Shown here one piece after another: positions 5,382-20,900 of a DNA stretch of 64,000 bases. Origin of the DNA: Bacteroidales bacterium (GTDB taxonomy: Bacteria; Bacteroidota; Bacteroidia; Bacteroidales; UBA12077); the NCBI GenBank assembly GCA_030637515.1, contig DAOWGM010000059.1, positions 25,441 to 89,440 on the forward strand, given 5' to 3'. The translations under genes and the position numbers were made by a program. Within the stretch, counting starts at the first letter, position 1. Each line of letters starts with the position of its first letter. The notes under the pieces were generated by a model that did not search any database, was not told the origin of the DNA, and was given only the letters and a program-made list of their open reading frames with translations.

Positions 5382-5411
5382 ATAACAGCTCATCTAATAA
5401 TGAGCTGTTAT
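5382..5411. terminator. Hairpin between convergent genes (11-bp stem ATAACAGCTCA/TGAGCTGTTAT)
   Basis: Perfect inverted repeat. The loop contains the TAG stop of the minus-strand gene. T-rich flank on the + side. Confidence 0.45.
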
Positions 5412-6392: not shown

Positions 6393-6397
6393 GTGTG

Positions 6398-7666
6398 TTA
6401 TTTTAAATCAAATCCAATGTCACTTCTGTAATATTTACCATCAAATTGAATTGAATCAACATTTTGATAGCTTTTCTTAAGTGCTTCGAAGATATCTTTA
6501 CCATAAGATGAAACTGCAATTACGCGACCTCCATTAGTAACAATATCGGAAGAATCGTATTTAGTCCCTGCATGAAATACTAATGAATCATTAATTTCAG
6601 GTATTTCTATTTTTTTACCTTTTTCATAATTGCCGGGATATCCACCAGAAACCATCATTACAGTTGCACAAGCTTCCGGATTAAATTCAATTTTAGCTTT
6701 TTCAAGTGTTTCATTCTTAACATGTAAAAACAGATCAACAATATCTGATTTTATTCTTGGAACTACTACTTCTGTTTCAGGATCGCCCATTCTTACATTA
6801 TATTCAATTACAAAAGGATCTTCTCCTACTTTTATTAATCCAAAGAAAACAAATCCTTTATAGTCTATATTTTCATTAATCAACCCCTCTATAGTTGGTT
6901 TAATAACTCTTTCTTCAACTTTATCCATAAACCCCTTGTCTGCAAAAGGAACTGGCGAAACTGCTCCCATACCACCTGTATTTAATCCTGTATCAGCTTC
7001 GCCGATTCTTTTATAATCTTTTGCTTCAGGTAATATCTTATATGATTTACCATCGGTTAATACAAAAACAGACAATTCTATTCCACTAAGGAATTCCTCA
7101 ATTACCACAGTATCACTTGCTTTCCCAAACTGTCCCTGAAGCATTTCTTCAAGAGATTTTTTTGCTTCTTCAAGATCTTCCAGAATTAACACTCCTTTAC
7201 CTGCTGCTAGTCCGTCAGCTTTTAATACATATGGAGAGCTTACTTCTTCTAAGAATGCTTTCCCTTCATTAATACTTGCTTTTGAAAAGGATTTATATGA
7301 TGCTGTTGGAATATTATATTTGCTCATGAACTCTTTAGCAAAATCTTTACTTCCTTCGAGTATGGCTCCTGCCTTAACCGGACCAATTACAGATATGTTT
7401 TTTAAGCTTTTATCTTCCAGAAAATAATCTGCAATGCCATCTACTAAAGGTTGTTCCGGACCAACAACAACAAGCTCAACATTTTTCTCTATAGCAAATT
7501 TCTTTATCTTACTAAAATCTGATAAATTGAGATTAACATTTTCACCAAGTTCTGATGTTCCGGCATTGCCGGGAGCAATATAAAGTTTGTCAATTTTTTC
7601 ACTCTGAGTTATTTTCCAGGCAAGTGCATGTTCACGACCACCAGAACCTAAAAGTAGTATATTCAT
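6398..7666 (-). CDS. purD: Phosphoribosylamine--glycine ligase
   Basis: 'MNILLLGSGGREHALAWK' N-terminus, ATP-grasp core, 422 aa. Confidence 0.95.
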   Translation of the reverse strand: MNILLLGSGGREHALAWKITQSEKIDKLYIAPGNAGTSELGENVNLNLSDFSKIKKFAIEKNVELVVVGPEQPLVDGIADYFLEDKSLKNISVIGPVKAGAILEGSKDFAKEFMSKYNIPTASYKSFSKASINEGKAFLEEVSSPYVLKADGLAAGKGVLILEDLEEAKKSLEEMLQGQFGKASDTVVIEEFLSGIELSVFVLTDGKSYKILPEAKDYKRIGEADTGLNTGGMGAVSPVPFADKGFMDKVEERVIKPTIEGLINENIDYKGFVFFGLIKVGEDPFVIEYNVRMGDPETEVVVPRIKSDIVDLFLHVKNETLEKAKIEFNPEACATVMMVSGGYPGNYEKGKKIEIPEINDSLVFHAGTKYDSSDIVTNGGRVIAVSSYGKDIFEALKKSYQNVDSIQFDGKYYRSDIGFDLK

Positions 7667-7689
7667 AATCTGCTAATTTATTTTGTAAG

Positions 7690-7697
7690 CAAAGATA
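7690..7697 (-). promoter_or_regulatory. -7 box (TATCTTTG on minus strand) upstream of purD
   Basis: Plus strand CAAAGATA. 23 nt before the purD ATG. Confidence 0.4.
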
Positions 7698-7745
7698 ATT
7701 AACGGAAAGTTAGCCAACAAATTAATTTATCACTGCATATTAACA

Positions 7746-7774
7746 ATAAAAAAGGGCTCTTTTTCAGAGCCCTT
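7746..7774 (-). terminator. Rho-independent terminator of the SprB-repeat gene
   Basis: 9-bp stem AAGGGCTCT/AGAGCCCTT with a 5-nt loop, followed on the minus strand by a U-run (plus-strand A-run 7748-7753). Confidence 0.7.
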
Positions 7775-7785
7775 AATTGCATTAT

Positions 7786-10700
7786 TTACTGTATAATAAT
7801 TTTTCTATTGATACTTACCTCTTTATTATAGAGTCGTATGAAATATATTCCTTTCGGATAATTAGCAACATTAACTTCCATCCTGCTTTTTTCACCAATT
7901 AAATTTAAGTCTCTTATAAAAACAACACTTCCTGATGCGTTTACAAGCTGTATAGTAAAGTCTCCCTCATATTCTGTTTTAACAAATAATCTATCTGAAA
8001 CAGGATTAGGATAAATACGAATTTTCTCATCAGAAAAATAATCAACAATACCATCTGGAGAATCTACTGATAAAGTACTTGAAGTAATAGGACCGCAAGT
8101 ATTATCATCAGTCACATCAACAGTATAATCTCCTGGCAATAACGAGTTAAAAACACCTGTAGAATTTGTAACACTACCTGGGTTAAGAGTGTAACTTAAA
8201 TCTCCTGTACCACCAGAAGCTGAAACTGTAACAGATCCATCTGCCACTGTTGAAGCTGAAGCATTTGTTGCACTTTCAGAATCAATTGTTATAACAGGAG
8301 GATTAGTAATATCAACACTATCTTCGTATTCACAATTATTTGCATCGCTCGCAATAAAGTAATACCTGCCTGCCGATAAGCCACTCTGATTTTTATCGGT
8401 TATCGCATGACCAGATCCGCCTGATGTTGTCCAGAAGTAATCAAAAGTAGGTGTTCCTCCTGAAACATTAAGTAATATAGCACCATCATTCTCATTATTA
8501 CAAGTAATATCATAAACATCTGGTACAATAACAATTAAGCCAGGTTGAGTAATATTATATGGTTTTGTTTGTTCACAACTATTTGCATCTGTTACGGTTA
8601 CAGTAAAAGAACCTGCAGGCATATCATCTGCAATTGCTGTAGCCTGTGATCCAGGATCATCCCACAAATATGAAAAGCCTCCGGCTCCGCCAGAAGCATT
8701 TGCTGTTACCTGGGCATCATTATTACCATAACATGTTACTCCATCATCGAGTACAATATCTATTAATATTGCTAGAGCATCAGTAATAGTTGCATTATCG
8801 GGTGTTTCACAAGAGTTTGCATCCGTAACTGTCACATTATAAGTATCGGCAATAAGACCAGCAATATCCTGAGTTTTATCTCCTGTTGACCAATTATATG
8901 TATACGGTTCAGTACCTCCGGTAACAGTTAAGTCAACATATCCCGAATTATCTCCATTACAATCTAATTGCGGAGGAACATCGGTTGATGTATTCAGAAC
9001 TAATGGTTCTATAATTGTTACAGAATCTGTTTTAGAACCACTATCGTCAGTTACAGTAACTAAATATTTCCCTGCACTCAGACCTGTTGCAGTTGGAGAA
9101 TTTAATCCTCCATCATGACTCCATACATATGATAATGTTCCTGAATATCCTAAGGATGTAATTGTAGCTTCTCCATCTCCTAAGCTATTGCATGATACAT
9201 TTTGAATATCTGATTCTTTAAAATAAATAAATAATTGAGTAGAATCAATAATAGTTAGCGAAGTATCCGCAGTACAGCCATTATCGTCCAAAACGGTAAC
9301 TGAATAAAGTCCTCCATCGGTTAAACCAGTAATATCCTCTGTACTTGCAGAGAATAAATTCGGCCCGGTCCAGGTATATGAAGCATATGATTCTGCACCT
9401 CCTGTAACCACAAGGTTAACTGCACCATCCTGTGCAACAGGGACATTATTTATGTGAGTTACTGTTGTTCCTGTGAATACAATTGTATCTGGCCCAGATA
9501 TATTAATTAATGTATCTGCCGTACATCCTTTTTCATCTGTTACAGTAACAGAATATGTACCAGTAGTCAGTCCGGTCTGATCTTCAGCAAGAAGACTAAC
9601 ACCTGAACCTCCGTTTGACTCAAACCAATAGTAAGTATTGCCACCATTACCTCCGCTAACATTAAGACCAATTGCTCCTTCAGTACTATAACTGCAAGAG
9701 GTAACTTGTGTTATGTTTGGGTTAAACAGAAATGTATCTGGTTCGGTAATATTAAATGTAACTGAATCTATGGAAGATGCATTGTCAGTTATGGTTACAG
9801 TATATTTACCAGCAGTAAGGCTTGATGCTGTTGAATCATTTAATCCTCCATCATGACTCCAGTCATAATTAATAGGAGGTACTCCAAAAAATGGTGTGAC
9901 AATGAGTTCTCCATCGTTCCCTTTACCACATGTTACATTTTGCTTTTTAGTAAAGGCAACTGTAAATGGCGGATCATATTTAGCAACTAATAAGCAAGAA
10001 TTACCTGGTATTGGATTAGTAAATAAACTATCGCCAACTTGAACTTCTGTTGCTCTAAAATAACCTGCTAAATATCCATTATTTTCAGAATCAGAATCTA
10101 TTTCAAGTCCGGAATCATTTTCAGAATCTGAGCCATCAATACTTATTGCCTTTAAATCATTTCCATCAGTATCAATGAGTCCTAAAAAGATATCGTAATC
10201 ATCAGTACCACTTGACTTCAGAGTATCTTCACCAAAGATTATTTCGTTAGAAAAGTATCCGGTACAATATAAAAATCCATTTTGATAATTAATTCCACGA
10301 GCCCAATCATGTGAGGTACTACCATAACCTTTTCCCCAAATTAAATTTCCGTTTTTATTATATTTATAAATAAAAATATCATCGCCTCCATTTGTAGTTA
10401 TTGCAGAAGAAAGCTCAGTTAAAGTTGAATCAATTTGTATGTTTGTTCCCTCGAAATAACCTGTAAAGTATATGTTGCCATAGTTATCTCTTGATAATGT
10501 ACCGGATAATGCTTCTGCATCTGTACTGGTTCTTCTGGTCCATAATCCGTTTCCAGAGATATCTGTCTTGTAAATAAATACATCGGTATAACCTGATCCT
10601 GTTGAAACTTCATCTCCAGTTTCAAAAGAACAAGTACCATCAAATACACCTAAAAAATAATAGTTTTCATTATAGGCTTTTAAATCTGTGAATTTTGAAC

Positions 10701-11343
10701 TTAAAGTAGTAGTTGGAATATCCTTTGCAAACAGCGTGTTTCCTTCATCGTCTAATTTTGTAATAAACATACCATAACTATTACTATACCTTATATCAGT
10801 GGGAAAGGTAATTGAATCACGATAAACTCCTGCAACTACCAAATCTCCGTATTTATCAATATCAATTGAAGAAACAAATTGCTTAGCTTCATTATATGCT
10901 ATCTTTTTAGCCCATATCTCATTTCCGTTTAAGTCATATTTTGCAAGAAATATATCTAAAAAACCATCTGAGTTTAATACTGTTGGGTCGAAAGTAATAT
11001 CCTGCTGAAAACCACCAACTAAATAAATATATGTTCCATCGGAAACCATACTGCTTCCAAAATCTAAACCTCCACCGCCTAATTGTTTAAACCAATCAAT
11101 TGTATAGTCTGATTTATATTTAACAATATAAGCATCTCTGGAATTAGCAATATAATCAGTTCCAACGTTAATTGTTCCTAAATAGTCGCCAAATACATAA
11201 ACATTGCCATCTATTACTTCCTGACTAAGAATTTGGTTTATGTCAGCTGTAGAACTAATATAGTTACTAAGAACAAAATCCTGACTATTTGCAGAATTAC
11301 ATACTAACACGCTTAATATCAGTAAATTTAAAAAATTTCTCAT
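7786..11343 (-). CDS. Large secreted protein: SBBP-like beta-propeller repeats + multiple SprB repeats + T9SS type-A C-terminal sorting domain
   Basis: Signal peptide 'MRNFLNLLILSVLVCNSANS|Q'. Repeated 'D.F..KY...GN..W' units in the N-terminal approx 460 aa. At least 6 'C.G..DG.......GG...Y.Y.W' SprB repeats. C-terminus 'IRIYPNPVSDRLFV...GIYFIRL'. Confidence 0.85.
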   Translation of the reverse strand: MRNFLNLLILSVLVCNSANSQDFVLSNYISSTADINQILSQEVIDGNVYVFGDYLGTINVGTDYIANSRDAYIVKYKSDYTIDWFKQLGGGGLDFGSSMVSDGTYIYLVGGFQQDITFDPTVLNSDGFLDIFLAKYDLNGNEIWAKKIAYNEAKQFVSSIDIDKYGDLVVAGVYRDSITFPTDIRYSNSYGMFITKLDDEGNTLFAKDIPTTTLSSKFTDLKAYNENYYFLGVFDGTCSFETGDEVSTGSGYTDVFIYKTDISGNGLWTRRTSTDAEALSGTLSRDNYGNIYFTGYFEGTNIQIDSTLTELSSAITTNGGDDIFIYKYNKNGNLIWGKGYGSTSHDWARGINYQNGFLYCTGYFSNEIIFGEDTLKSSGTDDYDIFLGLIDTDGNDLKAISIDGSDSENDSGLEIDSDSENNGYLAGYFRATEVQVGDSLFTNPIPGNSCLLVAKYDPPFTVAFTKKQNVTCGKGNDGELIVTPFFGVPPINYDWSHDGGLNDSTASSLTAGKYTVTITDNASSIDSVTFNITEPDTFLFNPNITQVTSCSYSTEGAIGLNVSGGNGGNTYYWFESNGGSGVSLLAEDQTGLTTGTYSVTVTDEKGCTADTLINISGPDTIVFTGTTVTHINNVPVAQDGAVNLVVTGGAESYASYTWTGPNLFSASTEDITGLTDGGLYSVTVLDDNGCTADTSLTIIDSTQLFIYFKESDIQNVSCNSLGDGEATITSLGYSGTLSYVWSHDGGLNSPTATGLSAGKYLVTVTDDSGSKTDSVTIIEPLVLNTSTDVPPQLDCNGDNSGYVDLTVTGGTEPYTYNWSTGDKTQDIAGLIADTYNVTVTDANSCETPDNATITDALAILIDIVLDDGVTCYGNNDAQVTANASGGAGGFSYLWDDPGSQATAIADDMPAGSFTVTVTDANSCEQTKPYNITQPGLIVIVPDVYDITCNNENDGAILLNVSGGTPTFDYFWTTSGGSGHAITDKNQSGLSAGRYYFIASDANNCEYEDSVDITNPPVITIDSESATNASASTVADGSVTVSASGGTGDLSYTLNPGSVTNSTGVFNSLLPGDYTVDVTDDNTCGPITSSTLSVDSPDGIVDYFSDEKIRIYPNPVSDRLFVKTEYEGDFTIQLVNASGSVVFIRDLNLIGEKSRMEVNVANYPKGIYFIRLYNKEVSINRKIIIQ

Positions 11344-11353
11344 GGCTTTAGTT

Positions 11354-11506
11354 TTATGAAACTTGGTATGAAGTAGCTTCTTTTGTTACATCATGGGTCT
11401 CTCCGCCTTCAGTCTTTCCCTTGTCCAGACAAATTAACTTTGGAGTCTCCCAATTTAGTTTTTCAGAACAACTATTAGTCTCTATTTTATTCCCCTTTTT
11501 ATCCAT
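11354..11506 (-). CDS. Candidate lasso-peptide precursor (50 aa, not in ORF track)
   Basis: Hand translation: MDKKGNKIETNSCSEKLNWETPKLICLDKGKTEGGETHDVTKEATSYQVS*. Same strand as and downstream of B2. 'WETPKL' resembles the YxxPxL RRE-binding leader motif, there is a Thr-x-Gly junction (T32-E33-G34), Asp/Glu acceptors follow, and the C-terminal Ser is as in kinase-associated lasso precursors. Confidence 0.6.
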   Translation of the reverse strand: MDKKGNKIETNSCSEKLNWETPKLICLDKGKTEGGETHDVTKEATSYQVS

Positions 11507-11646
11507 ATCAACACATTTGTTTTTGATCTCAATAATTATGCAATTTTACTAATATTCAAGTAAATTTATTACGGTTTTATTGATTCTACAAGTTTTTGTT
11601 ATAAAAAATAGTTTTCAATACATTCAATTATAATAATTTTTTTCTT

Positions 11647-12084
11647 TTAGCTGTAAAATCCAACAACAGAAAATTTTTCATATCCTTTCTTTCCACTTAT
11701 AAAATCACTGCCAATTTTAAGCCAGGCATGTGCAATCAGTTTACTATTTTTATCTTTTGACACACCAAGATAAATTGTCGATTTTATCTGGTGTTTTTCC
11801 AATACTTTTTTCACTGCAATTGCCTCTTCAAAACATTTTACTTTCCATGGCAATCTTTTTTTTAGTCTTCGTTTATTTTTTCTCAAGACATCTATTAATT
11901 GAAGCTGATTCTCATTAACATCGACTTCAATCTCTTTTTTAAATTCCCCAAGAACAGAACTAAACCATTTTAAAGGAATAATTCGAACAAGAACAAAAGC
12001 ATAAATCAACCAAAAAAATGTTTGGTTTAAAATTATACGTTCTTTTTTATCTATCTTATAATATTTCTTTAACAGTTTGAACAT
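11647..12084 (-). CDS. Lasso peptide biosynthesis B2 protein (transglutaminase-like leader peptidase)
   Basis: 145 aa. 'WKVKCFEEAIAVKKVL' (catalytic Cys), 'LIAHAWLKIGSDFISG' (His/Asp). The N-terminal hydrophobic helix is typical of the family. Confidence 0.85.
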   Translation of the reverse strand: MFKLLKKYYKIDKKERIILNQTFFWLIYAFVLVRIIPLKWFSSVLGEFKKEIEVDVNENQLQLIDVLRKNKRRLKKRLPWKVKCFEEAIAVKKVLEKHQIKSTIYLGVSKDKNSKLIAHAWLKIGSDFISGKKGYEKFSVVGFYS

Positions 12085-12117
12085 ATTTGATGTTCATATT
12101 TTTAAACGTTTTAAGAG

Positions 12118-12408
12118 CTAATATGTTACAACAATCAACTCTTTTTCAATTAAATCCATAATAAATGGAGCAATGTCTTTAAAACATTTGTTTTTATCAA
12201 TATTGTAATTTGCTGTAATCATTTCAATCAGAGTAACTATTTTAATAGGATTTTTAATATTATCCCAAATAAAAGTTCCGGTTTTACCTAAACCATAATA
12301 TTCTCCTTTTTCGATACTCATCATTACTTTTTCACCATCCAGATCGCTGGTAAGAACATCGTTTTTTCTTTGTATAATTGTATCTAATGTAATTTCTATT
12401 TTAGCCAT
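12118..12408 (-). CDS. PqqD-family lasso peptide B1 protein (RiPP recognition element)
   Basis: 'LDGEKVMMSIEKGEYYGLGKTGTFIWDNI....VTLIEMITANYNID' is a PqqD-like pattern. I prefer the ATG at 12408 (MAKIEITLD), 1 nt after the upstream TAG, over the track start at 12438. Confidence 0.8.
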   Translation of the reverse strand: MAKIEITLDTIIQRKNDVLTSDLDGEKVMMSIEKGEYYGLGKTGTFIWDNIKNPIKIVTLIEMITANYNIDKNKCFKDIAPFIMDLIEKELIVVTY

Positions 12409-12409
12409 A

Positions 12410-13276
12410 CTAATAAATAGGTTTATTGTTAGTATCAATATATTCGTATTTCATCATAACAGATTTATGTTTTGAAATAACTTCTTCAGTTGTTTTTTGA
12501 TTTAAACAATTTTTCCAATCACCCGTTTTCCCCTTTCTAAAAAATGACTTTGATTTAATCATCTTTTCTTTAAATCCGCCTTCTTTCTCCTGATTTGCAA
12601 GAACTGAAAAATCACTTTTTTTGATAGCTTCATGAATTTCTGAATCTGGCTTTTCAATTCCAATAAATTTTACTGCATCTTTAAAACTATCAAATGTGTT
12701 GCTTATCATATCTTCATAACGAATAAAATGAACTGGGATATTTTTTTGCTCTGTCCAGCTTTTTACATGATCTGACCAAGATCCTAAAATTTGCCGGAGT
12801 TGATTTTGAAGCTTGTCATTCTGATTACAAAAAGCAAAATTTGAATCATTCAATGTTTTAACCATTTTCTCAACTGGTTTGGCACTATGATAAGCAAAAG
12901 AAACCAAAACATCCAGTGGATTTCTGATAATATAAACCACTCCCCTTGTTATTTCTGATGGAAAAAGAGGTTCACCTCTTTCTGTTGCATAGTACTTATC
13001 GTGAACTTTCTTAAACAACAATTCATTGCTTTCAGCAGATTGCATTCGATACACTTCCGGTCGTAAAGAATCAATTTCATTAAAAGTTAAATCAGATGAC
13101 GAAAGACCAGTATATTCATCAAATATTTTTCTGGAACTGGAAATTGAAGTGTCAGCCAGATCGTTAATATTAGCAGGGACATCCGAATCGTTTAACAAAT
13201 TCGTAAGAAATACTCTAAACCAGGTATTCCCTGACTTTGGATAACTTGCAAGCCATATAATGTTTTTTTTATACAT
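12410..13276 (-). CDS. PAPS-dependent sulfotransferase (Sulfotransfer_1 type)
   Basis: 5'-PSB motif 'SYPKSGNTWFRVFL' and 3'-PB motif 'VVYIIRNPLDVLVSFAYH'. C-terminal 'FFRKGKTGDWKN' matches the family GxxGxW region. Confidence 0.85.
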   Translation of the reverse strand: MYKKNIIWLASYPKSGNTWFRVFLTNLLNDSDVPANINDLADTSISSSRKIFDEYTGLSSSDLTFNEIDSLRPEVYRMQSAESNELLFKKVHDKYYATERGEPLFPSEITRGVVYIIRNPLDVLVSFAYHSAKPVEKMVKTLNDSNFAFCNQNDKLQNQLRQILGSWSDHVKSWTEQKNIPVHFIRYEDMISNTFDSFKDAVKFIGIEKPDSEIHEAIKKSDFSVLANQEKEGGFKEKMIKSKSFFRKGKTGDWKNCLNQKTTEEVISKHKSVMMKYEYIDTNNKPIY

Positions 13277-14165
13277 CCAGATTTAGCTTTTTCAATAAAA
13301 AATCTCCAAATTCATTTAGCAATAATGGTGATTGAGGCCTGGTAACCTTATAAACCTTTATTTCAGGTAAAAGTTTATTTAAAACCTGAAAATGATCCTG
13401 TTGTTTATCGAGGCCTTGAACAAATCTGTAACGATATGTATTGTTTTTAACTGTATTAAATTTTTTAATTCCGGATAACTCTTCAAATTCAAATCCAGGT
13501 GAATTTTTAGTGTTTATAATGATAATATTTTTTAAAGGAAGAGGCTCATTATAATAGTTTTCATTAACGGGTAACTGAAATTTCATCATGTCAGGCCTTA
13601 TCTCTTCCAAAGATTCATCGTGCATTTTTAATTTTTGCAAAACATCGTTCCATAATTTCATTTTGGGAAATCCGGGAACAACTTCAAGATTATGATTTAC
13701 AACACTAATATCGTCAGCTAAAACCTGAAAAGCCTGACTAACAAAATAAGCTGCAATAGAAGACTTTCCTACTCCACTTAATCCTGTAAAGACGGTTGCC
13801 GATTTACCAAATTTTACGGCACTTCCATGAACCGGTAATAAACCTCGCTGAATAAATAATGCGCCAAAAGCCGAACCTAAAAGAAATAAACGAACTTCTT
13901 TATCAATTTCCTTTTTTAAAAGCTTTACACTTATTTGGTTTCCATTAGCGACATAGTACTTAGCTATATTATTAACTTCCAGTAAGAATTCATTTTTAGC
14001 TGCCTGATACATTACACCTTTATTAATTATTTTATCAAGCTTTGTGGGAGCTTCCCCAATCTTTATCTCCACATCAGGTGTACCCCCAGAAACCAATAAT
14101 TCTGGAATTTCAAAATCAGATTTAATAATTAATCCGAATGCCTTATATGTAAAGGTTTTTACCAT
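13269..14165 (-). CDS. HPr-kinase-like (HprK-related) lasso precursor kinase
   Basis: 298 aa. P-loop 'FTGLSGVGKSSIAAYF' in the C-terminal-domain position. The stop overlaps the sulfotransferase ATG (ATGTATAA). Confidence 0.75.
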   Translation of the reverse strand: MVKTFTYKAFGLIIKSDFEIPELLVSGGTPDVEIKIGEAPTKLDKIINKGVMYQAAKNEFLLEVNNIAKYYVANGNQISVKLLKKEIDKEVRLFLLGSAFGALFIQRGLLPVHGSAVKFGKSATVFTGLSGVGKSSIAAYFVSQAFQVLADDISVVNHNLEVVPGFPKMKLWNDVLQKLKMHDESLEEIRPDMMKFQLPVNENYYNEPLPLKNIIIINTKNSPGFEFEELSGIKKFNTVKNNTYRYRFVQGLDKQQDHFQVLNKLLPEIKVYKVTRPQSPLLLNEFGDFLLKKLNLDV

Positions 14166-14183
14166 TTCTTTTCTTGCTTAGCA

Positions 14184-14191
14184 CAAATTTA
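14184..14191 (-). promoter_or_regulatory. -7 box (TAAATTTG on minus strand) for the kinase-sulfotransferase-B1-B2 operon
   Basis: Plus strand CAAATTTA. 18 nt before the kinase ATG (14165). Confidence 0.5.
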
Positions 14192-14258
14192 CACGAAAAT
14201 GCCTTAAAAGTAAGTATTATTGGAGTTTTTGCCTGTAGAATTATCCTTTTCAATTGCT

Positions 14259-14266
14259 TATATTTG
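14259..14266 (+). promoter_or_regulatory. -7 box (TATATTTG) for the cyclase-nucleotidyltransferase operon
   Basis: Perfect TAnnTTTG, 15 nt before the ATG at 14282. It lies inside the track's longer ORF, which argues for the shorter start. Confidence 0.5.
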
Positions 14267-14281
14267 TTAAAAGTCTTTTTT

Positions 14282-16165
14282 ATGAACTCCATTTTCGGAA
14301 GAATAAATACTAGTAAAAATCAAATTGATCAATCTCTTTTTAACAATAGTATTGATGTATTATCAGTATTCCCTGATGTCAAAAAAGAAATCAGTATAGA
14401 TAATAATACAGCTTTAGGAGAGGTTCTTTTTCCTCCATTTATACAAGCAGGTATTCAACATTCATCGAAAAGAATTGTTTCTGATTCAAAGCTTTACAAC
14501 TTACCAGATCTTGTGCAAAAGTTAAATATAAATGAAAATCAAGCCGAAGAAGGTTTTGTTATTTTAAAAGCCTATGAAAAGTGGGGCAATGATTGTGTTA
14601 AATATTTTATTGGAGATTTTGCTTTTGCAATTTGGGACACGAATACGGAAGAACTCTTTTGTGCACGTGATCATTTGGGAGTAAAGCCTTTTCATTATTT
14701 TTTTAATGATGAAACATTTGTTTTTAGTTCTGATATCAGTGCTGTTCTCGCGCAAAAGGATCTTCAGTTTAGTATTGATGAACAATACATTGCAGATACT
14801 ATCTCAATTATAAGTTCGAAAAAAATCAGAACAAATTATAATGAGATTAAGAAGTTGCCTCCTGCCTCTTACTTATTTTTAAAAAATGAGAACTTAGAAA
14901 TTAAACAATACTGGGAATTACAAACTCAAAAAACCATTCAGAAAAAAGACTCGGAAATTATTGAAGATTTTAAAACTTTACTTTTAAAAGCGGTAAAGTG
15001 CAGATTAAATAATGATAATTCAACCGGGACAGAGCTTAGTGGAGGTATTGACTCTTCGTGCATTACTGCAATATCTTCCAAGTTTGCTCAAATAAAAACT
15101 TTTTCTCATGTTTTACCTGATCATTTATTGGAAAAAATACATCCTTTTAAAGATGAGCGTGATTATATAAATCTTCTCGATGATTATTGTAACATTCAGG
15201 ATCGATATTTTATAACTTCAGAAAACAAATCTTTACATCGTGCAATTGAAGAAAATGTAATTGATTATAAAGGAATTTCTCAACAGAACTTTGGAGTTTT
15301 TTCTGATTGTTTGTATCAACAAGCAATGAAAGGAAATGTTTCTGTATTGCTTTCAGGATTTGGTGGAGATGAAGTAGTTACTTCAAAATCTAAAGGGTAT
15401 CTTTCTGAGTTAGCTTCAAATAGACAGTGGAAAGAACTAAAAAAAGATTTGAAGAATCAAAAGCCCAATAAATACAGATATTTAAGAACTCTATTAAAGT
15501 ATTTACTAAAGTTTAAAGCTCCGTTTATTTACAAGTTTATTTCTTTAAGAAAATATAAAAGACCGTTTTGGATAGATAAATATGATAATTTGGCAATAAG
15601 CAAAGAGTTCTCCCAAGAATTTAATATTAAAGAACGATACTTATTGTATTACAAAAAACGAAACTGTTCATCTCTGCAAAAAAATGCTATTGAAAGAATT
15701 ACACATCCGCATGTTTCGCAACGACTTGAATACTGTTCGTTAATTGCACGAAAGTACGGAATCGAATATCGATATCCTTTGCTTGACATACGTTTAATTG
15801 AGTGTTATCTGGCAATGCCTACGAGATTAAAAGCACAAAACGGAATCGGAAGATATGCAATCAGAAAAGCAATTGAGGGAATTGTGCCTGAAAAAATCCA
15901 ATGGAGAAATGATAAAAGCGGAGCTACCATTCCAAGCATTTTTATGAGAATGATAAATGATAAAGAACAAATATCAGAACTTATAAATCGGGCAAAGAAA
16001 ATTGATATTATTAAAAAATACATCGATCTTGAAAAATTTGAAAGATGGTTTCATAAACTCTGTCAAAGATCTGAAAACAAACAAAAAAATATTAATCCGG
16101 CTGCTTTTTATAATTACTTAAAGCTAATTATATTTATAGAACAAAATCCTAATCTTTTTAAATGA
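14282..16165 (+). CDS. Lasso peptide isopeptide-bond-forming cyclase (asparagine synthetase B homologue)
   Basis: PP-loop 'TELSGGIDSSCITA'. AsnB-like N-domain 'GDFAFAIWDTNTEELFCARDHLGVKPFHYF'. The N-terminus MNSIFG lacks the Cys2 glutaminase nucleophile. Confidence 0.85.
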   Translation: MNSIFGRINTSKNQIDQSLFNNSIDVLSVFPDVKKEISIDNNTALGEVLFPPFIQAGIQHSSKRIVSDSKLYNLPDLVQKLNINENQAEEGFVILKAYEKWGNDCVKYFIGDFAFAIWDTNTEELFCARDHLGVKPFHYFFNDETFVFSSDISAVLAQKDLQFSIDEQYIADTISIISSKKIRTNYNEIKKLPPASYLFLKNENLEIKQYWELQTQKTIQKKDSEIIEDFKTLLLKAVKCRLNNDNSTGTELSGGIDSSCITAISSKFAQIKTFSHVLPDHLLEKIHPFKDERDYINLLDDYCNIQDRYFITSENKSLHRAIEENVIDYKGISQQNFGVFSDCLYQQAMKGNVSVLLSGFGGDEVVTSKSKGYLSELASNRQWKELKKDLKNQKPNKYRYLRTLLKYLLKFKAPFIYKFISLRKYKRPFWIDKYDNLAISKEFSQEFNIKERYLLYYKKRNCSSLQKNAIERITHPHVSQRLEYCSLIARKYGIEYRYPLLDIRLIECYLAMPTRLKAQNGIGRYAIRKAIEGIVPEKIQWRNDKSGATIPSIFMRMINDKEQISELINRAKKIDIIKKYIDLEKFERWFHKLCQRSENKQKNINPAAFYNYLKLIIFIEQNPNLFK

Positions 16166-17328
16166 TTGATTTTAAAAATCATATTGAACAAAAATTCACT
16201 GATGAGTTAAAACTTCTGATTTTTCTTTCTCAGGGTGATTTGAATGATATCTCTTTCTTAGGAAATTTAGACAAGATTGATTGGGATGAATTTGTAGAAT
16301 TGACAATAAAACATAGGTTAGTATCGCATGTGTTACAGCATTCGGAATTTTTAGCTGAGAAATTTCCAATCCCCACTTACGAAAAATTAATTGACACCAG
16401 ATTAAAACACTCCAAAACATCACTTAATTATGCAATTCACGCTATTCGGATATTTCAAGAATTTAAAGAAAAAAGTATTCCTCATATATTTTTTAAAGGG
16501 CCATTACTTTCTCTTGAATTATATAATGATATTGGATACAGAAATTTTGGTGATATTGATGTATTGGTTGAAAAGAAAGATGCTGAGAAAGCAAAAAATC
16601 TACTTGAAGACTTAGGCTTTACTTGTATTTATCCTAAAATTAAACTTACTGAAAAACAAAAAGAAGTAAATTACAGTATTAGCCATCATTATCAGTTTAA
16701 ACATCCTGTACAAACTATTCATATTGAGCTACACTGGAATATTACAAATCCGAAAACTTTTTTTGGAATAGAATCAAAAGATATTATTTCAAACTCCATT
16801 AATTTAAAAGTGTCGAACTATGAATTGCCTTATATTTCAAAAATTGAAAATATCGTTTTTCAGGCTGCACACGGATCTATTCATCAATGGTATAGATTGT
16901 TCTGGATAAAAGATTTTTCGAAACTGCTCACAATAGTTCATTCTGAAGATCTGAAAAAAGCGTATGATTTATCAAAGAAACTTAAGCTGCAAAACTGTTT
17001 TATTCAAGCATGCTTATTATCAAATTTGCTTTACAAAACTGAAGTTCCAGATTTTGAGAATTTTAAGATTAAGAAGAATCTGAATAAGATTCCATTAAGC
17101 TCAATCACTGGAAAAGATTTAAGCAAGCAAGGATTAAAAGGAAAAATTAAATTCGTTTTATACAGAATCCGTTTAAAACCCGATTTCAATTATTATTTCG
17201 AATTAATTTACAGGCTAAGAACTCATTTGTCGGATTGGGAATTAATAAAGCTTCCAAAAAATCTATTCTTTTTATATTATGCTTTAAGACCTTTCTTACT
17301 GATTTATAAATTTCTATTTAGAAAATGA
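16162..17328 (+). CDS. NTP_transf_5 (PF14907-like) nucleotidyltransferase-fold tailoring enzyme
   Basis: 'GYRNFGDIDVLVEKKD' nucleotidyltransferase signature and 'IHIELHWNI'. ATGA overlap with the cyclase stop. Confidence 0.7.
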   Translation: MIDFKNHIEQKFTDELKLLIFLSQGDLNDISFLGNLDKIDWDEFVELTIKHRLVSHVLQHSEFLAEKFPIPTYEKLIDTRLKHSKTSLNYAIHAIRIFQEFKEKSIPHIFFKGPLLSLELYNDIGYRNFGDIDVLVEKKDAEKAKNLLEDLGFTCIYPKIKLTEKQKEVNYSISHHYQFKHPVQTIHIELHWNITNPKTFFGIESKDIISNSINLKVSNYELPYISKIENIVFQAAHGSIHQWYRLFWIKDFSKLLTIVHSEDLKKAYDLSKKLKLQNCFIQACLLSNLLYKTEVPDFENFKIKKNLNKIPLSSITGKDLSKQGLKGKIKFVLYRIRLKPDFNYYFELIYRLRTHLSDWELIKLPKNLFFLYYALRPFLLIYKFLFRK

Positions 17329-17943
17329 AGTATCTGAAAAATCAATTGAGCTAAATTGAAATCCTTTCGCCGAATAAAATTTTAGTACTTCAGGCAAAAC
17401 ATATTTGAGATTTTTTTCTGCTTTTATAGTATCATGAAAAACAATAATAGATCCTGGGTTTACTGAATTTATTGTTTTTTTCAGGCATGTTTCTTTCTTT
17501 AAGCTATTGTTATAATCTCTTGTAAGAACATCCCACATTACTATTTTAAACTCTTTTTTTAGTTGTCTTATTTGTGATGGTTTTATTCTACCATATGGAG
17601 GTCGAAAAAGATTAGAATTAATATACTCTGAAGCTTTTCTAACATTCTGAAAATACTTTTCATTACTCGTACGCCATCCCTTAATATGAGAATAGCCATG
17701 ATTGCCTACAGAATGCCCTTCGGCAATTATTTGCTTGTAAAGTTTTTGATTATTTTCAACGTTCTTCCCTATACAAAAGAAAGTGGCTTTGGCATTATAT
17801 TCTTTTAAAACAGAAATAACCCATTCGGTTACTCCCAATGTTGGACCATCGTCAAATGTTAAAAAAAGCTCCTTATTCCGATCAGGGAAACTCCAGATTA
17901 AATCTTTAAAAAATCTTGCAACTATATTTTCTTTCTTTATCAC
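17314..17943 (-). CDS. Polysaccharide deacetylase (NodB/CE4 family)
   Basis: 'LFLTFDDGP', 'GHSVGNHGYSH', 'FRPPYG' CE4 motifs. Confidence 0.85.
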   Translation of the reverse strand: MIKKENIVARFFKDLIWSFPDRNKELFLTFDDGPTLGVTEWVISVLKEYNAKATFFCIGKNVENNQKLYKQIIAEGHSVGNHGYSHIKGWRTSNEKYFQNVRKASEYINSNLFRPPYGRIKPSQIRQLKKEFKIVMWDVLTRDYNNSLKKETCLKKTINSVNPGSIIVFHDTIKAEKNLKYVLPEVLKFYSAKGFQFSSIDFSDTSFSK

Positions 17944-17946
17944 CTT

Positions 17947-20900
17947 TTAATTAAACTGCTCAATATATTGCATAAACTTTTGCTCAATCTGACTATTTAA
18001 CTCCTGCTGATTATTACTTGCAGTAATTCTGTAAAGCTCCTGCAAAATATAAAGATCCATTTGTTTTTCCATCGTAATATCCTTCGTTCCAGATGCAAGC
18101 TGAGGTTTAAGATTAAAATAATAATCAAGCTCAACAAACATTTTGCTGCTAAGTCTTTCTACCAAAGAGTTTGCCTTTTCTGTTGCACCTGCATGATAAT
18201 ACGCTGATATAACAGAAAGTAAAGTACTATTGAATGGTATCTTATGATCAGGAAATAATTCCATACAACGATCAAGGACTAATAAAGCAGAATCGTTCTT
18301 TCCTTCTTCAATTAATTTCTCAGCTAATCTTCCAAAACTACTTCGTAGGTTTGAAAACATCCTGGTATTATTTTCATCAAAATAGATGTCGTTTTCTTCA
18401 ATTCCACCCCAACGAAATTTATTCATAATATTATCGTACATCAACTCAGAATCAACTTCACCGCTATGAAATCGCTCCTTCTTTGCTTCAACCGGAACCA
18501 ACTGATATGTTAATCCATCAACTTTAAAATATTTTTGCAGATTAAAATACTTCGTACTGGTTACAGTCATTGCCCAATAAACAGGTCTCTCCCAATTGTT
18601 TGTTGCTAAAATATCGAGCAACATTAATCCGTCTTTATATAAGTATCCTTGATTAAAATTCCATTGCATCTCGTCAACAATTCGATCTCTGTATTTTTCA
18701 TCTACAATACCTTTTTCAATAACATTATCAGGATCAATCTTTAATTTATATTTCTTAGATGGAATATAATTTATCATTTCGTTTGCTACAAAAGGAGATT
18801 TAATCTTTGTTTTAGCATCATCGCTCGCAATAAAATCAACCACATCTCTTACATTAACTGCTTGCCCAACCCTGTCGTAGATCGGTAAAATATCACGAAC
18901 TCCTTTATGATATTTATCGTGAGTTAAAGAGAATGGCATTCGTTCAGCTTCATATGATTTACGACTCATTTGATCAATATACCATGCAGCTCTTAAATAA
19001 CTTAAATTACAAACTTTTATATCTGTTCTAATTCCTTCAACTTCCTGAGCATACCAAAGTGGGAATGTATCATTATCACCATTTGTAAATAAAATCGCAT
19101 TCTTTTTACACGAATTAAGATAATTATATGCAAGATCACGAGCTGTATATCTTCCTGATCTGTCATGATCGTCCCAGTTTTCAGAAGCCATAATTCCAGG
19201 AACTAAAACCAAAGTAATTACTGTCACCAATATTGCAGAAATTGACTTTGGAGCTTTTTTGCTTAAATAGCTAATAAGTCCTGCTACTCCTAATCCAATC
19301 CAAATTGAGAAAGCATAATAAGAACCTGCAAAAGCATAATCCCTTTCACGAGGCTGTATAGGATACTGATTTAAATAAACAACTATTGCTATACCTGTTA
19401 ATACATATAACATTAATACAACCGCGAAGTCTTGTTTGTTTTGTTTATAATGAAACATTAATCCGACAAGTCCGAGTAAAAGCGGCAACATAAAATATTT
19501 GTTTCTGCCAGGATTATTTTTAAGATGCTCCGGAACCTGATCCTGATCACCCAATCTTGCATTATCTACAAATGGAATTCCACTTATCCAATTTCCTTTC
19601 AACACATTACCATGACCTTGAATATCATTTTGTCGTCCTGAGAAATTCCACATAAAATACCTGAAATACATATGACCAATCTGGTATTTTACAAAAAATG
19701 CAATATTATTTGCAAAAGAAGGATTAACTCTTTTTTCAACTTTGCCGGCTCCATTTCTTACAGAAATCTTCTTGTCCGATATATTAACCCATTTATTATA
19801 TTCATTAATGTGTTTCTTATCGCTGCTATACATTCTCGGGAAAAGTGATGTAAAACGCGGATCAAATTCTACTTCAATTTTATAATCAGCAATCTCATAT
19901 CTTCCATCTTTTTTAATATAAACAGGTTTTGTTTTTTTATTACTTATAGCGGGAGCATCAAAAGACTGACCGTAAAATAATGGTCTGTCGCCATATTGTT
20001 CGCGATTCAAATAATATAATAAATCAAATACATTGTCCGGATTGTTTTGATCCATAGGAGGATCAGCAGCAGAACGAATAATAACCATTGCAAATGAAGA
20101 ATAACCAATTAGAATTACGGTTAATCCCATAATTACAGTGTTTAAAACAACTTTCCCTTTGCGATGTGTATATTTTATTCCCCATACAATTAATCCAATA
20201 ACAAGGAAAACATAAAATAATGCTCCTGAATTATATGGCAAACCAAATCCGTTTACAAACAATAAATCAAACCACGATGCAACTTTCAGAAATCCTGGAA
20301 TAATAACATACATAATAGATGCAAGAAGTATTACAGAAATTACTAAAGCATAGAAAATACCTTTTTTCGTTACTTCGTATCTTTTAAAATAATAAACAAA
20401 AGCAATAGCAGGAATTGCTAATAAGTTCAATAAGTGAACTCCAATAGATAATCCAAGTAAATATGCTATAAAAATTAACCATCGGTTCGCATATTTGTTA
20501 TCAGATTCGTTTTCCCATTTTAAAATTGCCCAAAATACAACAGCGGTAAATAACGAAGAGGTTGCATAAACCTCAGCCTCAACAGCTGAAAACCAAAAAG
20601 AATCAGAAAATGTGTATGCTAAAGCACCAACAATTCCACTTCCTATAATTGTAATTATATTTCCAATTGAAAAATTATCTTCTTTAATAAAAATCTTTTT
20701 TGCAAAGTGCGTAATTGTCCAGAACAAAAACAAGATTGTAAAAGCACTCGACATTGCAGAAAGAATATTAACCATTTTTGCTGCATTTTCAGGTCCTGAA
20801 GAAAACAATGTAAAGATTCTTCCTAAAATCATAAAAAATGGTGCTCCCGGTGGATGTCCAACTTCAAGTCTGTATGCCGATGCAATAAATTCACCACAGT

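What the first reader, a model, noticed from the sequence alone, without database searches (positions are those of the whole stretch)
12410..13276. Eukaryote-like PAPS sulfotransferase embedded and translationally coupled inside a RiPP operon
Seen in sequence: both PAPS-binding motifs are intact ('PKSGNTW', 'RNPLDVLVS'). The gene is wedged between the kinase and B1 with a start overlap on one side and a 1-nt gap on the other, so it is almost certainly co-expressed with them.

Inference: candidate acceptors are Tyr47 or the Ser/Thr residues of the ...EATSYQVS tail, or a sugar installed by the nucleotidyltransferase. Sulfation is very rare among bacterial RiPPs, and a sulfated lasso peptide would be a new modification class. 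Sulfate and phosphate are nearly isobaric, so such products are easy to mis-assign.
Basis: partly seen in the sequence, partly recalled or inferred. Interest (0 to 1): 0.72.

Follow-up and report, generated by a model that had tools for sequence, protein, structure and literature searches.

The report
Sulfotransferase paired with lasso-peptide kinase
This gene is a real, intact sulfate-adding enzyme built into a lasso-peptide gene cluster and always partnered with the cluster's peptide kinase; the pairing was noted in print years ago, but what the enzyme sulfates has never been shown, so it remains a good experimental target.

Summary
Window 12410-13276 (-) encodes a 288-aa Sulfotransfer_1 protein with intact PAPS motifs. 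Its start overlaps the HprK-like kinase gene by 8 nt, and its stop lies 1 nt before the B1 start. The surrounding genes form a paeninodin-type lasso cluster in a Bacteroidales MAG.

The enzyme belongs to a very large bacterial clade, and its best profile match among solved structures is the bacterial glycopeptide sulfotransferase Teg12. "Eukaryote-like" is therefore misleading.

- **Kinase partner:** in 78 of 78 related loci with upstream sequence, spanning many phyla, a kinase gene lies within 1 kb. It usually overlaps the sulfotransferase gene.
- **Lasso context:** 45 of 46 loci with full flanks carry lasso genes.
- **Fusions:** kinase-sulfotransferase fusions occur in both domain orders, and sulfotransferase-PqqD fusions also exist.
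- **Sulfate donor:** six loci carry cysC/N/D beside the cluster.

I conclude it is a dedicated PAPS-dependent tailoring enzyme working with the kinase on the leader-bound precursor. The acceptor is unresolved. Tyr47 is not conserved, and the nucleotidyltransferase is present in only about half of the loci.

The co-occurrence was already noted in 2014 and 2016. No sulfated lasso peptide appears in the literature I could search. Verdict: a new member of a known, uncharacterised cluster type, of moderate interest.

The parts
12410..13276 (-). Sulfotransferase (ST), 288 aa, Sulfotransfer_1 family. It carries the 5'-PSB loop YPKSGNTW (12-19), the invariant His92, the 3'-PB motif RNPLDVLVS (118-126) and FFRKGKTGDW (245-254).
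   Evidence: Pfam E=7.7e-30. PDB sequence hits to SULTs, Teg12/14 and StaL. AF2 model with pLDDT 89.4, top Foldseek hit Teg12 3mgb. Motif residues are invariant in 42 homologues.
13269..14165 (-). HprK-like peptide kinase (K), 298 aa, Walker A GLSGVGKSS. Its stop overlaps the ST start by 8 nt.
   Evidence: Hpr_kinase_C E=5e-5, below the Pfam cutoff. HprK-related NCBIfam hits are weak. A K homologue lies within 1 kb of the ST in 78 of 78 loci with upstream sequence.
12118..12408 (-). B1, a PqqD-type RiPP recognition element, 96 aa from the ATG that lies 1 nt after the ST stop.
   Evidence: PqqD E=1.1e-13. NF033536 lasso_PqqD_Bac E=1.2e-27, above its cutoff.
11647..12084 (-). B2, the transglutaminase-like leader peptidase, 145 aa.
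   Evidence: Transglut_core3 E=4e-15. NF033537 lasso_biosyn_B2 E=2.8e-18.
11354..11506 (-). Precursor peptide A, 50 aa. The leader carries W19xxP22xL24...T32-E33, and the predicted core is GGETHDVTKEATSYQVS with a C-terminal Ser.
   Evidence: Sequence. Homologous precursors with the WxxPxL leader and a C-terminal Ser occur in about 44 related loci. The leader register matches PbaA W-15 (PMC13381572).
14282..16165 (+). C, the Asn-synthetase-like lasso cyclase. It is divergent from K. The likely start is the ATG at 14282 (MNSIFG...); the ORF is open from a TTG at 14174.
   Evidence: Asn_synthase E=3.4e-38 and GATase_7. NF033535 lasso cyclase E=9e-111, below that model's cutoff.
16162..17328 (+). 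NTP_transf_5 nucleotidyltransferase (PsmN-like), 388 aa. Its start overlaps the C stop by 4 nt.
   Evidence: PF14907 E=2.7e-46. PsmN of the same family is required for adding hexose to the phosphate in pseudomycoidin (PMC6993621).

Best explanation
The gene encodes a catalytically competent, PAPS-dependent O-sulfotransferase. It is a dedicated tailoring enzyme of a paeninodin-type (kinase-bearing) lasso-peptide pathway and works as one unit with the HprK-like peptide kinase.

Proposed sequence of events:
1. B1 (the RRE) binds the WxxPxL leader of the 50-aa precursor.
2. The kinase phosphorylates the C-terminal Ser50.
3. The sulfotransferase, held in the same complex, moves sulfate from PAPS to a hydroxyl in the same C-terminal tail. 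In this peptide the candidates are Thr45, Ser46, Tyr47 or Ser50.
4. B2 removes the leader and C closes the ring, giving a lasso peptide with a strongly anionic phospho- and sulfo-modified tail. The nucleotidyltransferase may decorate it further.

What is shown: enzyme family and intact motifs; operon structure; the obligate kinase-sulfotransferase pairing and the fusions; the lasso context; PAPS genes inside some clusters.

What is inferred: that the peptide is the acceptor, that the linear precursor rather than the mature lasso is the substrate, and which residue is modified.
For: - **Enzyme:** PF00685 at E=7.7e-30. The AF2 model has pLDDT 89.4 and its best fold matches are Teg12, SULT1D1, SULT1E1 and StaL. 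K14, H92, R118, S126, R247 and G249 are invariant in 42 homologues.
- **Module:** a kinase gene lies within 1 kb in 78 of 78 loci with upstream sequence, across Bacteroidota, Chloroflexota, Acidobacteriota, Desulfobacterota, Cyanobacteria, Bacillota, Pseudomonadota, Actinomycetota and other phyla. The kinase stop and sulfotransferase start overlap in 49 of 76 pairs and lie within 20 nt in 73 of 76.
- **Fusions:** K-ST (P0162, P0174, P0201, P0238) and ST-K (P0124, P0231) both occur. Most of the 68 relatives of P0162 at E<=1e-20 align over about 97% of the fusion, and some sit on Mb-sized contigs. ST-PqqD fusions exist (P0157, P0316).
- **Lasso context:** 45 of 46 full-flank loci carry a cyclase or B2 gene.
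- **Sulfate donor:** cysC/cysN/cysD lie beside the cluster in L024, L032, L048, L070, L073 and L075.
- **Substrate form:** characterised homologous kinases act on the C-terminal Ser of the linear precursor and not on the folded lasso (PMC8498205).
- **Conserved target:** precursors in these clusters mostly end in Ser, in about 44 loci, against a 10% background for small ORFs. ST residues 29-80 are highly conserved although the core peptides vary widely. By analogy with Teg12/StaL I take this stretch to be the acceptor-side region. If so, it argues for a conserved acceptor feature.
Against: - There are no biochemical data for any member of this clade, and no sulfated lasso peptide appears in the searchable literature.
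- Apart from the C-terminal Ser, no hydroxyl position is conserved across precursors. That Ser is the kinase's known target, so two enzymes would compete for or share one site.
- Seven loci have leader-motif precursors that do not end in Ser.
- No PAPS synthesis genes were found in this 64-kb window. The rest of the genome was not available.
- The catalytic role of His92 rests on invariance and position, not on a residue-level structural superposition.
- Only the 80 closest of at least 579 genomic relatives were examined.
Confidence: 0.6

Rival explanations
1. Sequential chemistry on one site. The kinase makes phospho-Ser50 (or a polyphosphate), and the sulfotransferase sulfates the phosphate itself. 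The product would be a peptide-bound phosphosulfate, or a sulfate-capped polyphosphate, resembling the anhydride in APS/PAPS.
For: - The sulfotransferase is never seen without an adjacent kinase (78 of 78 loci), whereas kinase-only lasso clusters exist, such as paeninodin. This asymmetry suggests the sulfotransferase depends on the kinase's product.
- Fusions occur in both domain orders.
- The C-terminal Ser is the only hydroxyl shared by most precursors.
- In pseudomycoidin the phosphate is already used as a handle, for hexose addition.
Against: - The invariant His92 general base fits a hydroxyl or amine acceptor rather than an already ionised phosphate.
- To my knowledge no Sulfotransfer_1 enzyme is known to sulfate a phosphate.
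- The pairing and the fusions are equally well explained by shared substrate docking.
Confidence: 0.12
2. Tyrosine O-sulfation of Tyr47, similar in outcome to RaxST/TPST or to the phenol sulfation by StaL/Teg12.
For: - The closest solved relatives, Teg12, StaL and the SULT1 enzymes, sulfate phenolic hydroxyls.
- Tyr47 lies 3 residues before the C-terminus.
- Many Bacteroidales precursors have a Tyr 1-6 residues before the terminal Ser.
Against: - Precursors in many sulfotransferase-bearing clusters have no Tyr in the tail or anywhere in the core, for example L020, L023, L024, L034, L040 and one of the three L063 peptides. Yet the residue 29-80 stretch, which I take to be acceptor-side, stays conserved.
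- The match to the TPST-type family PF13469 is below threshold, at 19.7 bits against a cutoff of 27.
Confidence: 0.13
3. The sulfotransferase sulfates a sugar that the NTP_transf_5 nucleotidyltransferase attaches to the phosphorylated Ser.
For: - The nucleotidyltransferase gene is in this cluster.
- Its homologue PsmN is required for adding hexose to the phosphate of pseudomycoidin.
- Sulfated sugars are common sulfotransferase products.
Against: - The nucleotidyltransferase gene is found in only 34 of 80 loci, and in 24 of 46 with full flanks. It is within 1 kb of the sulfotransferase in only 7.
- The fusion partners are the kinase and B1, never the nucleotidyltransferase.
Confidence: 0.08
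4. The protein is not a peptide-tailoring enzyme. It would be either a housekeeping or xenobiotic sulfotransferase sitting here by chance, or a non-catalytic scaffold for the kinase.
For: - No biochemistry exists for the clade.
- In one locus, L055, the kinase next to the sulfotransferase has a degenerate P-loop. This shows that partners in this module can lose catalysis.
- L006 has the kinase-sulfotransferase pair with no lasso genes within 10 kb.
Against: - The pairing and lasso context are conserved across many phyla.
- All PAPS-binding and catalytic residues are invariant.
- Six loci have cysC/N/D embedded beside the cluster.
- Fusion to an RRE occurs.
Confidence: 0.05

Closest known systems
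Paeninodin- and pseudomycoidin-type lasso clusters (PadeK, ThcoK, SyanK, PsmK kinases; PsmN nucleotidyltransferase)
   Same: Split B1/B2, an Asn-synthetase-like cyclase, an HprK-like kinase, an NTP_transf_5 gene, a WxxPxL leader with W at -15 and T at -2, and a C-terminal Ser on the precursor.
   Different: This cluster has an extra sulfotransferase gene overlapping the kinase gene. It has no ABC exporter gene, and the host is Bacteroidales. The characterised clusters carry no sulfotransferase and their products carry only phosphate with or without hexose.
Teg12, Teg14 and StaL, the glycopeptide-antibiotic sulfotransferases
   Same: Same Pfam family and fold. Teg12 is the best profile and fold match. 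They share the bacterial YPK(S/A)GNTW loop, use PAPS, and act on a peptide natural product.
   Different: Sequence identity is only about 21-23%. Those enzymes sulfate phenols or other hydroxyls of a cross-linked non-ribosomal aglycone, with no leader, no RRE and no kinase partner.
SslST and SscST, the sulfonated class II lanthipeptide sulfotransferases (PMC11143521)
   Same: A PAPS-dependent sulfotransferase embedded in a RiPP cluster. Those clusters carry cysCDN, as do six of the lasso loci here.
   Different: SslST is leader-independent, needs the LanM-made ring and sulfates a Tyr. Only two such clusters are known. Here the clade is widespread, is fused to a kinase or an RRE, and probably acts on the leader-bearing precursor.
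RaxST/RaxX (sulfatyrotide) and the TPSTs
   Same: Sulfation of a ribosomal peptide before leader removal.
   Different: They belong to a different sulfotransferase family. The window protein is below threshold for PF13469. They are Tyr-specific, and Tyr is not conserved in these precursors.
Linear polyphosphorylated peptide (LPP) clusters of Bacillota (PMC13381572)
   Same: They show that the HprK-kinase, RRE and nucleotidyltransferase set is a portable tailoring module used outside lasso pathways. This may explain the rare kinase-sulfotransferase loci without a cyclase, L006 and L081.
   Different: The text of that paper does not mention a sulfotransferase. LPP clusters use a YxxP leader and an SpI peptidase, and have no cyclase.

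Membership tests
Sulfotransfer_1 (PF00685), PAPS-dependent sulfotransferases | Profile match above the curated threshold over the whole domain | tested here: met
   104.6 bits against a cutoff of 22, residues 7-266 matching profile positions 4-243 of 255.
Sulfotransfer_1 (PF00685), PAPS-dependent sulfotransferases | 5'-phosphosulfate-binding loop PKSGxTW with the catalytic Lys | tested here: met
   YPKSGNTW at 12-19. P13, K14, S15, G16, N17, T18 and W19 are invariant in 42 homologues. The loop aligns to the same loop of Teg12 and mouse EST.
Sulfotransfer_1 (PF00685), PAPS-dependent sulfotransferases | 3'-phosphate-binding motif (RNPxDxxVS) and the C-terminal RKGxxGDW motif | tested here: met
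   RNPLDVLVS at 118-126 and FFRKGKTGDW at 245-254. They align to SULT7A1, SULT1E1 and Teg12. R118, S126, R247 and G249 are invariant.
Sulfotransfer_1 (PF00685), PAPS-dependent sulfotransferases | Catalytic His general base after the strand that follows the PSB helix | tested here: inconclusive
   His92 (KKVHD) is invariant and sits at the end of strand 87-91 of the model. Its spacing to the 3'-PB motif (20 residues) is close to that of mouse EST His108 (18 residues, from my knowledge of the residue number). No residue-level superposition was available.
Sulfotransfer_1 (PF00685), PAPS-dependent sulfotransferases | Sulfotransferase fold | tested here: met
   AF2 pLDDT 89.4 and pTM 0.89. Foldseek probability is 1.00 to Teg12, SULT1D1, SULT1E1 and StaL, with TM 0.55-0.66.
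Sulfotransfer_1 (PF00685), PAPS-dependent sulfotransferases | PAPS-dependent sulfuryl transfer activity | not testable with these tools
   Indirect support only: cysC/N/D genes lie beside the homologous clusters in 6 of 80 loci.
Kinase-type (paeninodin-like) lasso peptide gene cluster | Asn-synthetase-like cyclase plus split B1 (PqqD RRE) and B2 (transglutaminase-like peptidase) | tested here: met
   Pfam and NCBIfam lasso models match all three. The cyclase scores below the cutoff of the cyanobacterial exception model NF033535 but at E=9e-111.
Kinase-type (paeninodin-like) lasso peptide gene cluster | HprK-like kinase in the cluster | tested here: met
   The Hpr_kinase_C match is weak (E=5e-5), but the Walker A motif is intact. 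An HMM built from cluster kinases finds the same protein in 78 related loci at E<=1e-7, and far lower in nearly all of them.
Kinase-type (paeninodin-like) lasso peptide gene cluster | Precursor with a WxxPxL leader, Thr at -2 and a C-terminal Ser | tested here: met
   W19ETPKL24...T32E33 and the C-terminal Ser50. The register equals PbaA W-15.
Kinase-type (paeninodin-like) lasso peptide gene cluster | Core with Asp or Glu at position 7, 8 or 9 for ring closure | tested here: not met
   With cleavage after T32-E33 the core is GGETHDVTKE..., with acidic residues at positions 3, 6 and 10. The feature would be met (Gly1-Glu9) only if cleavage is shifted by one residue. The closest homologue, L001, has Glu9.
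TPST/RaxST-type tyrosine sulfotransferases (PF13469 Sulfotransfer_3) | Profile match above threshold | tested here: not met
   19.7 bits against a cutoff of 27, and only a partial match over residues 112-210.
TPST/RaxST-type tyrosine sulfotransferases (PF13469 Sulfotransfer_3) | A conserved acceptor Tyr in the substrate peptide | tested here: not met
   Tyr is absent from many precursor tails in sulfotransferase-bearing clusters.

The most novel reading that the evidence does not exclude
The kinase and the sulfotransferase act one after the other on the same C-terminal serine. The kinase's phosphate, or the end of its polyphosphate chain, is the sulfate acceptor. The product would be a ribosomal peptide carrying a phosphosulfate mixed anhydride (a sulfate-capped phospho-tail). 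That group is otherwise known to me only in APS and PAPS. This would explain why the sulfotransferase is never found without its own kinase and is repeatedly fused to it.
Probability: 0.12. Interest if true: 0.85.

Novelty: new member of a known kind. Interest (0 to 1): 0.48.

Why it matters
Sulfation is known in only a handful of RiPPs: RaxX, some methanobactins, conopeptides and two lanthipeptides. It has not been shown for any lasso peptide.

This clade is not a rarity. It occurs in at least 579 species-level genomes across many phyla, and it always sits beside a peptide kinase. Finding out what it does would define a widespread lasso modification that has so far gone undescribed.

It would also test whether some +80 Da "phospho" adducts on such peptides are really sulfate. 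If so, it could supply a leader-guided peptide sulfotransferase for engineering.

In Bacteroidales the cluster occupies a conserved chromosomal position. That hints at a physiological role rather than a sporadic antibiotic role.

Tried and rejected
- **'Eukaryote-like' or horizontally acquired gene.** Rejected. GC content matches the neighbours, the clade is large and bacterial, and Teg12 is the best profile match.
- **Two functional classes of kinase.** I asked whether sulfotransferase-adjacent kinases and second-copy kinases fall into separate clades. A neighbour-joining tree showed no clean split. Only one adjacent kinase, in L055, has a degenerate P-loop. I dropped this line.
- **A second conserved hydroxyl in precursor tails.** None was found.
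- **PAPS genes in the window.** Ten candidate ORFs were scanned by Pfam, and E. coli CysC/N/D were searched against all window ORFs. Nothing was found.
- **NCBIfam.** There is no curated model for the sulfotransferase or the nucleotidyltransferase.
- **Papers not held in the library.** Zhu 2016 JBC, Zhu 2016 FEBS Lett and Tietz 2017 (RODEO) could not be read. Their content is cited only through the 2021 review.
- **More distant relatives.** Those fused to DUF6065 or GNAT lie outside lasso contexts. I treated them as outside the clade.
- **Structural limits.** Model coordinates are not exposed, so I could not inspect the acceptor pocket.
Full report
**1. The observation**

The ORF at 12410-13276 (-) encodes 288 aa. 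It matches Pfam Sulfotransfer_1 at E=7.7e-30 over residues 7-266. So is the third PAPS motif, FFRKGKTGDWKN at 245-256, which aligns to the RKGxxGDWKN of cytosolic SULTs.

Reading the minus strand directly confirms the junctions. The kinase ORF ends GAT GTA TAA, and the sulfotransferase ATG lies inside it, giving an 8-nt overlap (ATGTATAA). The sulfotransferase TAG is followed by a single T and then the ATG of the PqqD protein. The precursor is 50 aa, has Tyr47 and ends EATSYQVS.

The window comes from a Bacteroidales MAG, because an identical protein is on record under that name (P0001). GC content is uniform at about 30% across the region.

**2. The surroundings**

On the minus strand the order is kinase, sulfotransferase, B1, B2, precursor:
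- kinase K, 13269-14165
- sulfotransferase ST, 12410-13276
- B1, 12118-12408
- B2, 11647-12084
- precursor A, 11354-11506

The plus strand runs divergently, with cyclase C (about 14282-16165) followed by an NTP_transf_5 nucleotidyltransferase NT (16162-17328). Pfam and NCBIfam place B1, B2 and C in the lasso families.

The leader has W19xxP22xL24 and T32 at -2. That puts W at -15, the same register as the paeninodin-like leader PbaA described in PMC13381572. This is therefore a paeninodin/pseudomycoidin-type lasso cluster with an added sulfotransferase. No exporter gene lies next to it.

**3. What kind of sulfotransferase**

The single-sequence search of solved structures gives mammalian SULTs first (E about 1e-15), with Teg14, Teg12 and StaL close behind. 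A profile built from 42 homologues puts the bacterial glycopeptide sulfotransferase Teg12 first, at 8.6e-19. Teg12 also shares the loop "WIASYPKAGNTW".

The AlphaFold model is confident (pLDDT 89.4), and its best Foldseek match is the Teg12-PAP-aglycone complex. In alignments of 13 and of 42 homologues, K14, H92, R118, S126, R247 and G249 are invariant. I could place His92 as the catalytic base only by its invariance and its spacing, not by superposition.

The clade is large: 7411 relatives at E<=1e-10 in the 90%-clustered database, and 1143 representatives at E<1e-30 in the 50%-clustered library. "Eukaryote-like" is true only in the sense of the shared Pfam family.

**4. Related loci**

A scan of one genome per species found at least 579 relatives, and I analysed the 80 closest. 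I used HMMs built iteratively from the window's own cluster proteins.

- **Kinase:** a kinase gene lies within 1 kb of the sulfotransferase in 78 of 80 loci. The two exceptions are contigs that begin inside the sulfotransferase gene.
- **Lasso genes:** of 46 loci with at least 5 kb on both sides, 46 have K, 45 have a lasso cyclase or B2, 40 have B1 and 24 have NT.
- **Taxa:** Bacteroidota, Myxococcota, Chloroflexota, Acidobacteriota, Desulfobacterota, Cyanobacteria, Bacillota (Sporomusa), Alpha- and Gammaproteobacteria, Actinomycetota, Verrucomicrobiota, Gemmatimonadota and others.
- **Junctions:** the K stop and ST start overlap by 1-14 nt in 48 of 76 pairs and by 47 nt in one more. They lie within 20 nt in 73 of 76.

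The overlap seen in the window is a conserved feature and not a local accident.

**5. Fusions**

Among the best 150 representatives, seven are multi-domain proteins:
- four K-ST fusions (P0162, P0174, P0201, P0238)
- two ST-K fusions (P0124, P0231)
- one ST-PqqD fusion (P0157)

A search with P0162 returned 68 relatives at E<=1e-20. Most align over about 97% of the fusion, and several are on contigs of 0.5-7 Mb. The fusions are therefore not assembly artefacts.

Two contexts were inspected:
- P0297 sits beside a cyclase and a 59-aa precursor ending in Ser, and a second ST-K gene pair lies further along.
- P0157 follows a separate kinase gene.

Fusion in both orders points to a physical kinase-sulfotransferase unit. 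Fusion to the RRE points to recruitment through the leader, and so to action on the uncleaved precursor. Characterised homologous kinases also act on the linear precursor and not on the folded lasso (review PMC8498205).

**6. Sulfate donor**

E. coli CysC, CysN and CysD, taken from NC_000913, find homologues immediately beside the cluster in six loci: L024, L032, L048, L070, L073 and L075. In L073, cysC-cysD-cysN ends about 10 nt before B1. My rough estimate is that fewer than one such locus would be expected by chance.

The same arrangement was used to argue for sulfation in the lanthipeptide ssl cluster (PMC11143521). None of these genes is in the window. The rest of the genome was not available.

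**7. The acceptor**

Using the leader motif rather than the C-terminus to find precursors, about 44 loci have leader-motif peptides ending in Ser. Seven loci end in N, F, P, I or T. The background for small ORFs ending in Ser is 10%.

No other hydroxyl position is conserved:
- Several tails lack Tyr entirely, for example L020, L023, L024, L034, L040 and one of the three L063 peptides.
- Some have no Ser, Thr or Tyr within six residues of the terminal Ser, for example L043, L054, L055 and L063.

Residues 29-80 of the sulfotransferase are highly conserved. I take this stretch to be acceptor-side by analogy with Teg12 and StaL, not from a structural test.

I read this as recognition of a constant feature of the C-terminal end, possibly the (phospho)serine terminus. 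The exact oxygen that receives sulfate remains undetermined.

- The sugar hypothesis is weakened by the patchy presence of the nucleotidyltransferase.
- The Tyr47 hypothesis is weakened by the lack of Tyr conservation and by the sub-threshold match to the TPST family.
- The phosphosulfate idea fits the one-way dependence on the kinase. It fits poorly with an invariant His general base.

**8. Literature**

- Letzel 2014 recorded an HPr kinase and a sulfotransferase in some lasso clusters and called their role unclear.
- The 2021 review, citing Zhu 2016, mentions a putative sulfotransferase gene at the start of some Firmicutes clusters. It gives no function.
- Pseudomycoidin shows that the NTP_transf_5 protein PsmN is required for adding hexose to the phosphate.
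- A 2022 review of lasso modifications contains no "sulf" term. A June 2026 JACS review lists lasso modifications without sulfation.
- Targeted searches found no sulfated lasso peptide.
- Known sulfated RiPPs are RaxX, some methanobactins, conopeptides and two lanthipeptides.

The library lacks most subscription papers, so a recent characterisation could have been missed.

**9. Verdict**

The gene association is already in print, so this is a new Bacteroidales member of a recognised but uncharacterised cluster type.

This analysis adds:
- the strict, often fused kinase-sulfotransferase pairing
- the RRE fusions
- the PAPS genes embedded beside some clusters
- evidence against Tyr and against a sugar as the general acceptor

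Interest is moderate. It would be high if the two enzymes turn out to build a phosphosulfate on one serine.

Noticed in passing
window 11354-11506 (-); also L016 11590-11724 and L030 3678-3806: With the leader register W(-15)/P(-12)/L(-10)/T(-2), the predicted core GGETHDVTKEATSYQVS has acidic residues at positions 3, 6 and 10, and none at 7-9 where known lasso rings close. Two other Bacteroidales precursors also have Glu10, while nine have Glu or Asp at 9. The explanation is either cleavage shifted by one residue or an unusually large ring.
   Followed up: partly
window 5394-21003; L001, L005, L009-L016, L018, L030, L046, L069: In Bacteroidales the lasso cluster sits in a conserved chromosomal slot. 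On one side are a TMEM260-like membrane protein and a polysaccharide deacetylase. On the other are a SprB-repeat protein, purD and a DUF6427 protein. The same order recurs in 12-14 loci whose sulfotransferases are only 45-67% identical, which suggests long vertical inheritance rather than a mobile cluster.
   Followed up: partly
window 7786-11343 (-): A 1185-aa protein with SprB repeats and a T9SS C-terminal sorting domain starts 10 nt after the precursor's stop codon. Homologues lie directly downstream of the precursor gene in at least nine other Bacteroidales loci. It may be co-transcribed with the precursor. Any functional link is unknown.
   Followed up: partly
L024 13669-16465; L032 3-1388; L048 6995-9759; L070 11775-12407; L073 5407-8251; L075 8431-9234: PAPS-synthesis genes (cysC, cysN or cysNC, cysD) lie directly beside the kinase-sulfotransferase lasso cluster in six of the 80 related loci. 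None is present in the window.
   Followed up: yes
L055 9060-9992 versus L055 4979-5869: The kinase next to the sulfotransferase has a degenerate P-loop (GNGVST instead of GxGKST), while a second kinase in the same cluster is intact. This is a single case of a possible pseudokinase partner.
   Followed up: partly
L006 9073-10831; L081 5032-7142: Two loci have the kinase-sulfotransferase module without a recognisable lasso cyclase. L006 has no lasso genes within 10 kb. L081 has a kinase plus an ST-PqqD fusion beside a B12-binding radical SAM gene. The module may also serve non-lasso RiPPs, as described for the kinase, RRE and nucleotidyltransferase set in LPP clusters (PMC13381572).
   Followed up: partly
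L082 8001-14882: One cluster carries a K-ST fusion plus a second, separate ST-K gene pair, together with a Glyco_transf_8 gene and an Asp/Arg hydroxylase gene. Extra sulfotransferase copies often come with their own kinase (also L043, L072). L021 and L031 carry additional ST-like ORFs without an extra kinase.
   Followed up: no
P0318, P0321-P0334; L084: More distant sulfotransferase relatives are fused to DUF6065 or to a GNAT acetyltransferase domain. The one context I read, the DUF6065 fusion P0332 (L084), is a short contig with no lasso genes. These mark the outer edge of the lasso-associated clade.
   Followed up: partly
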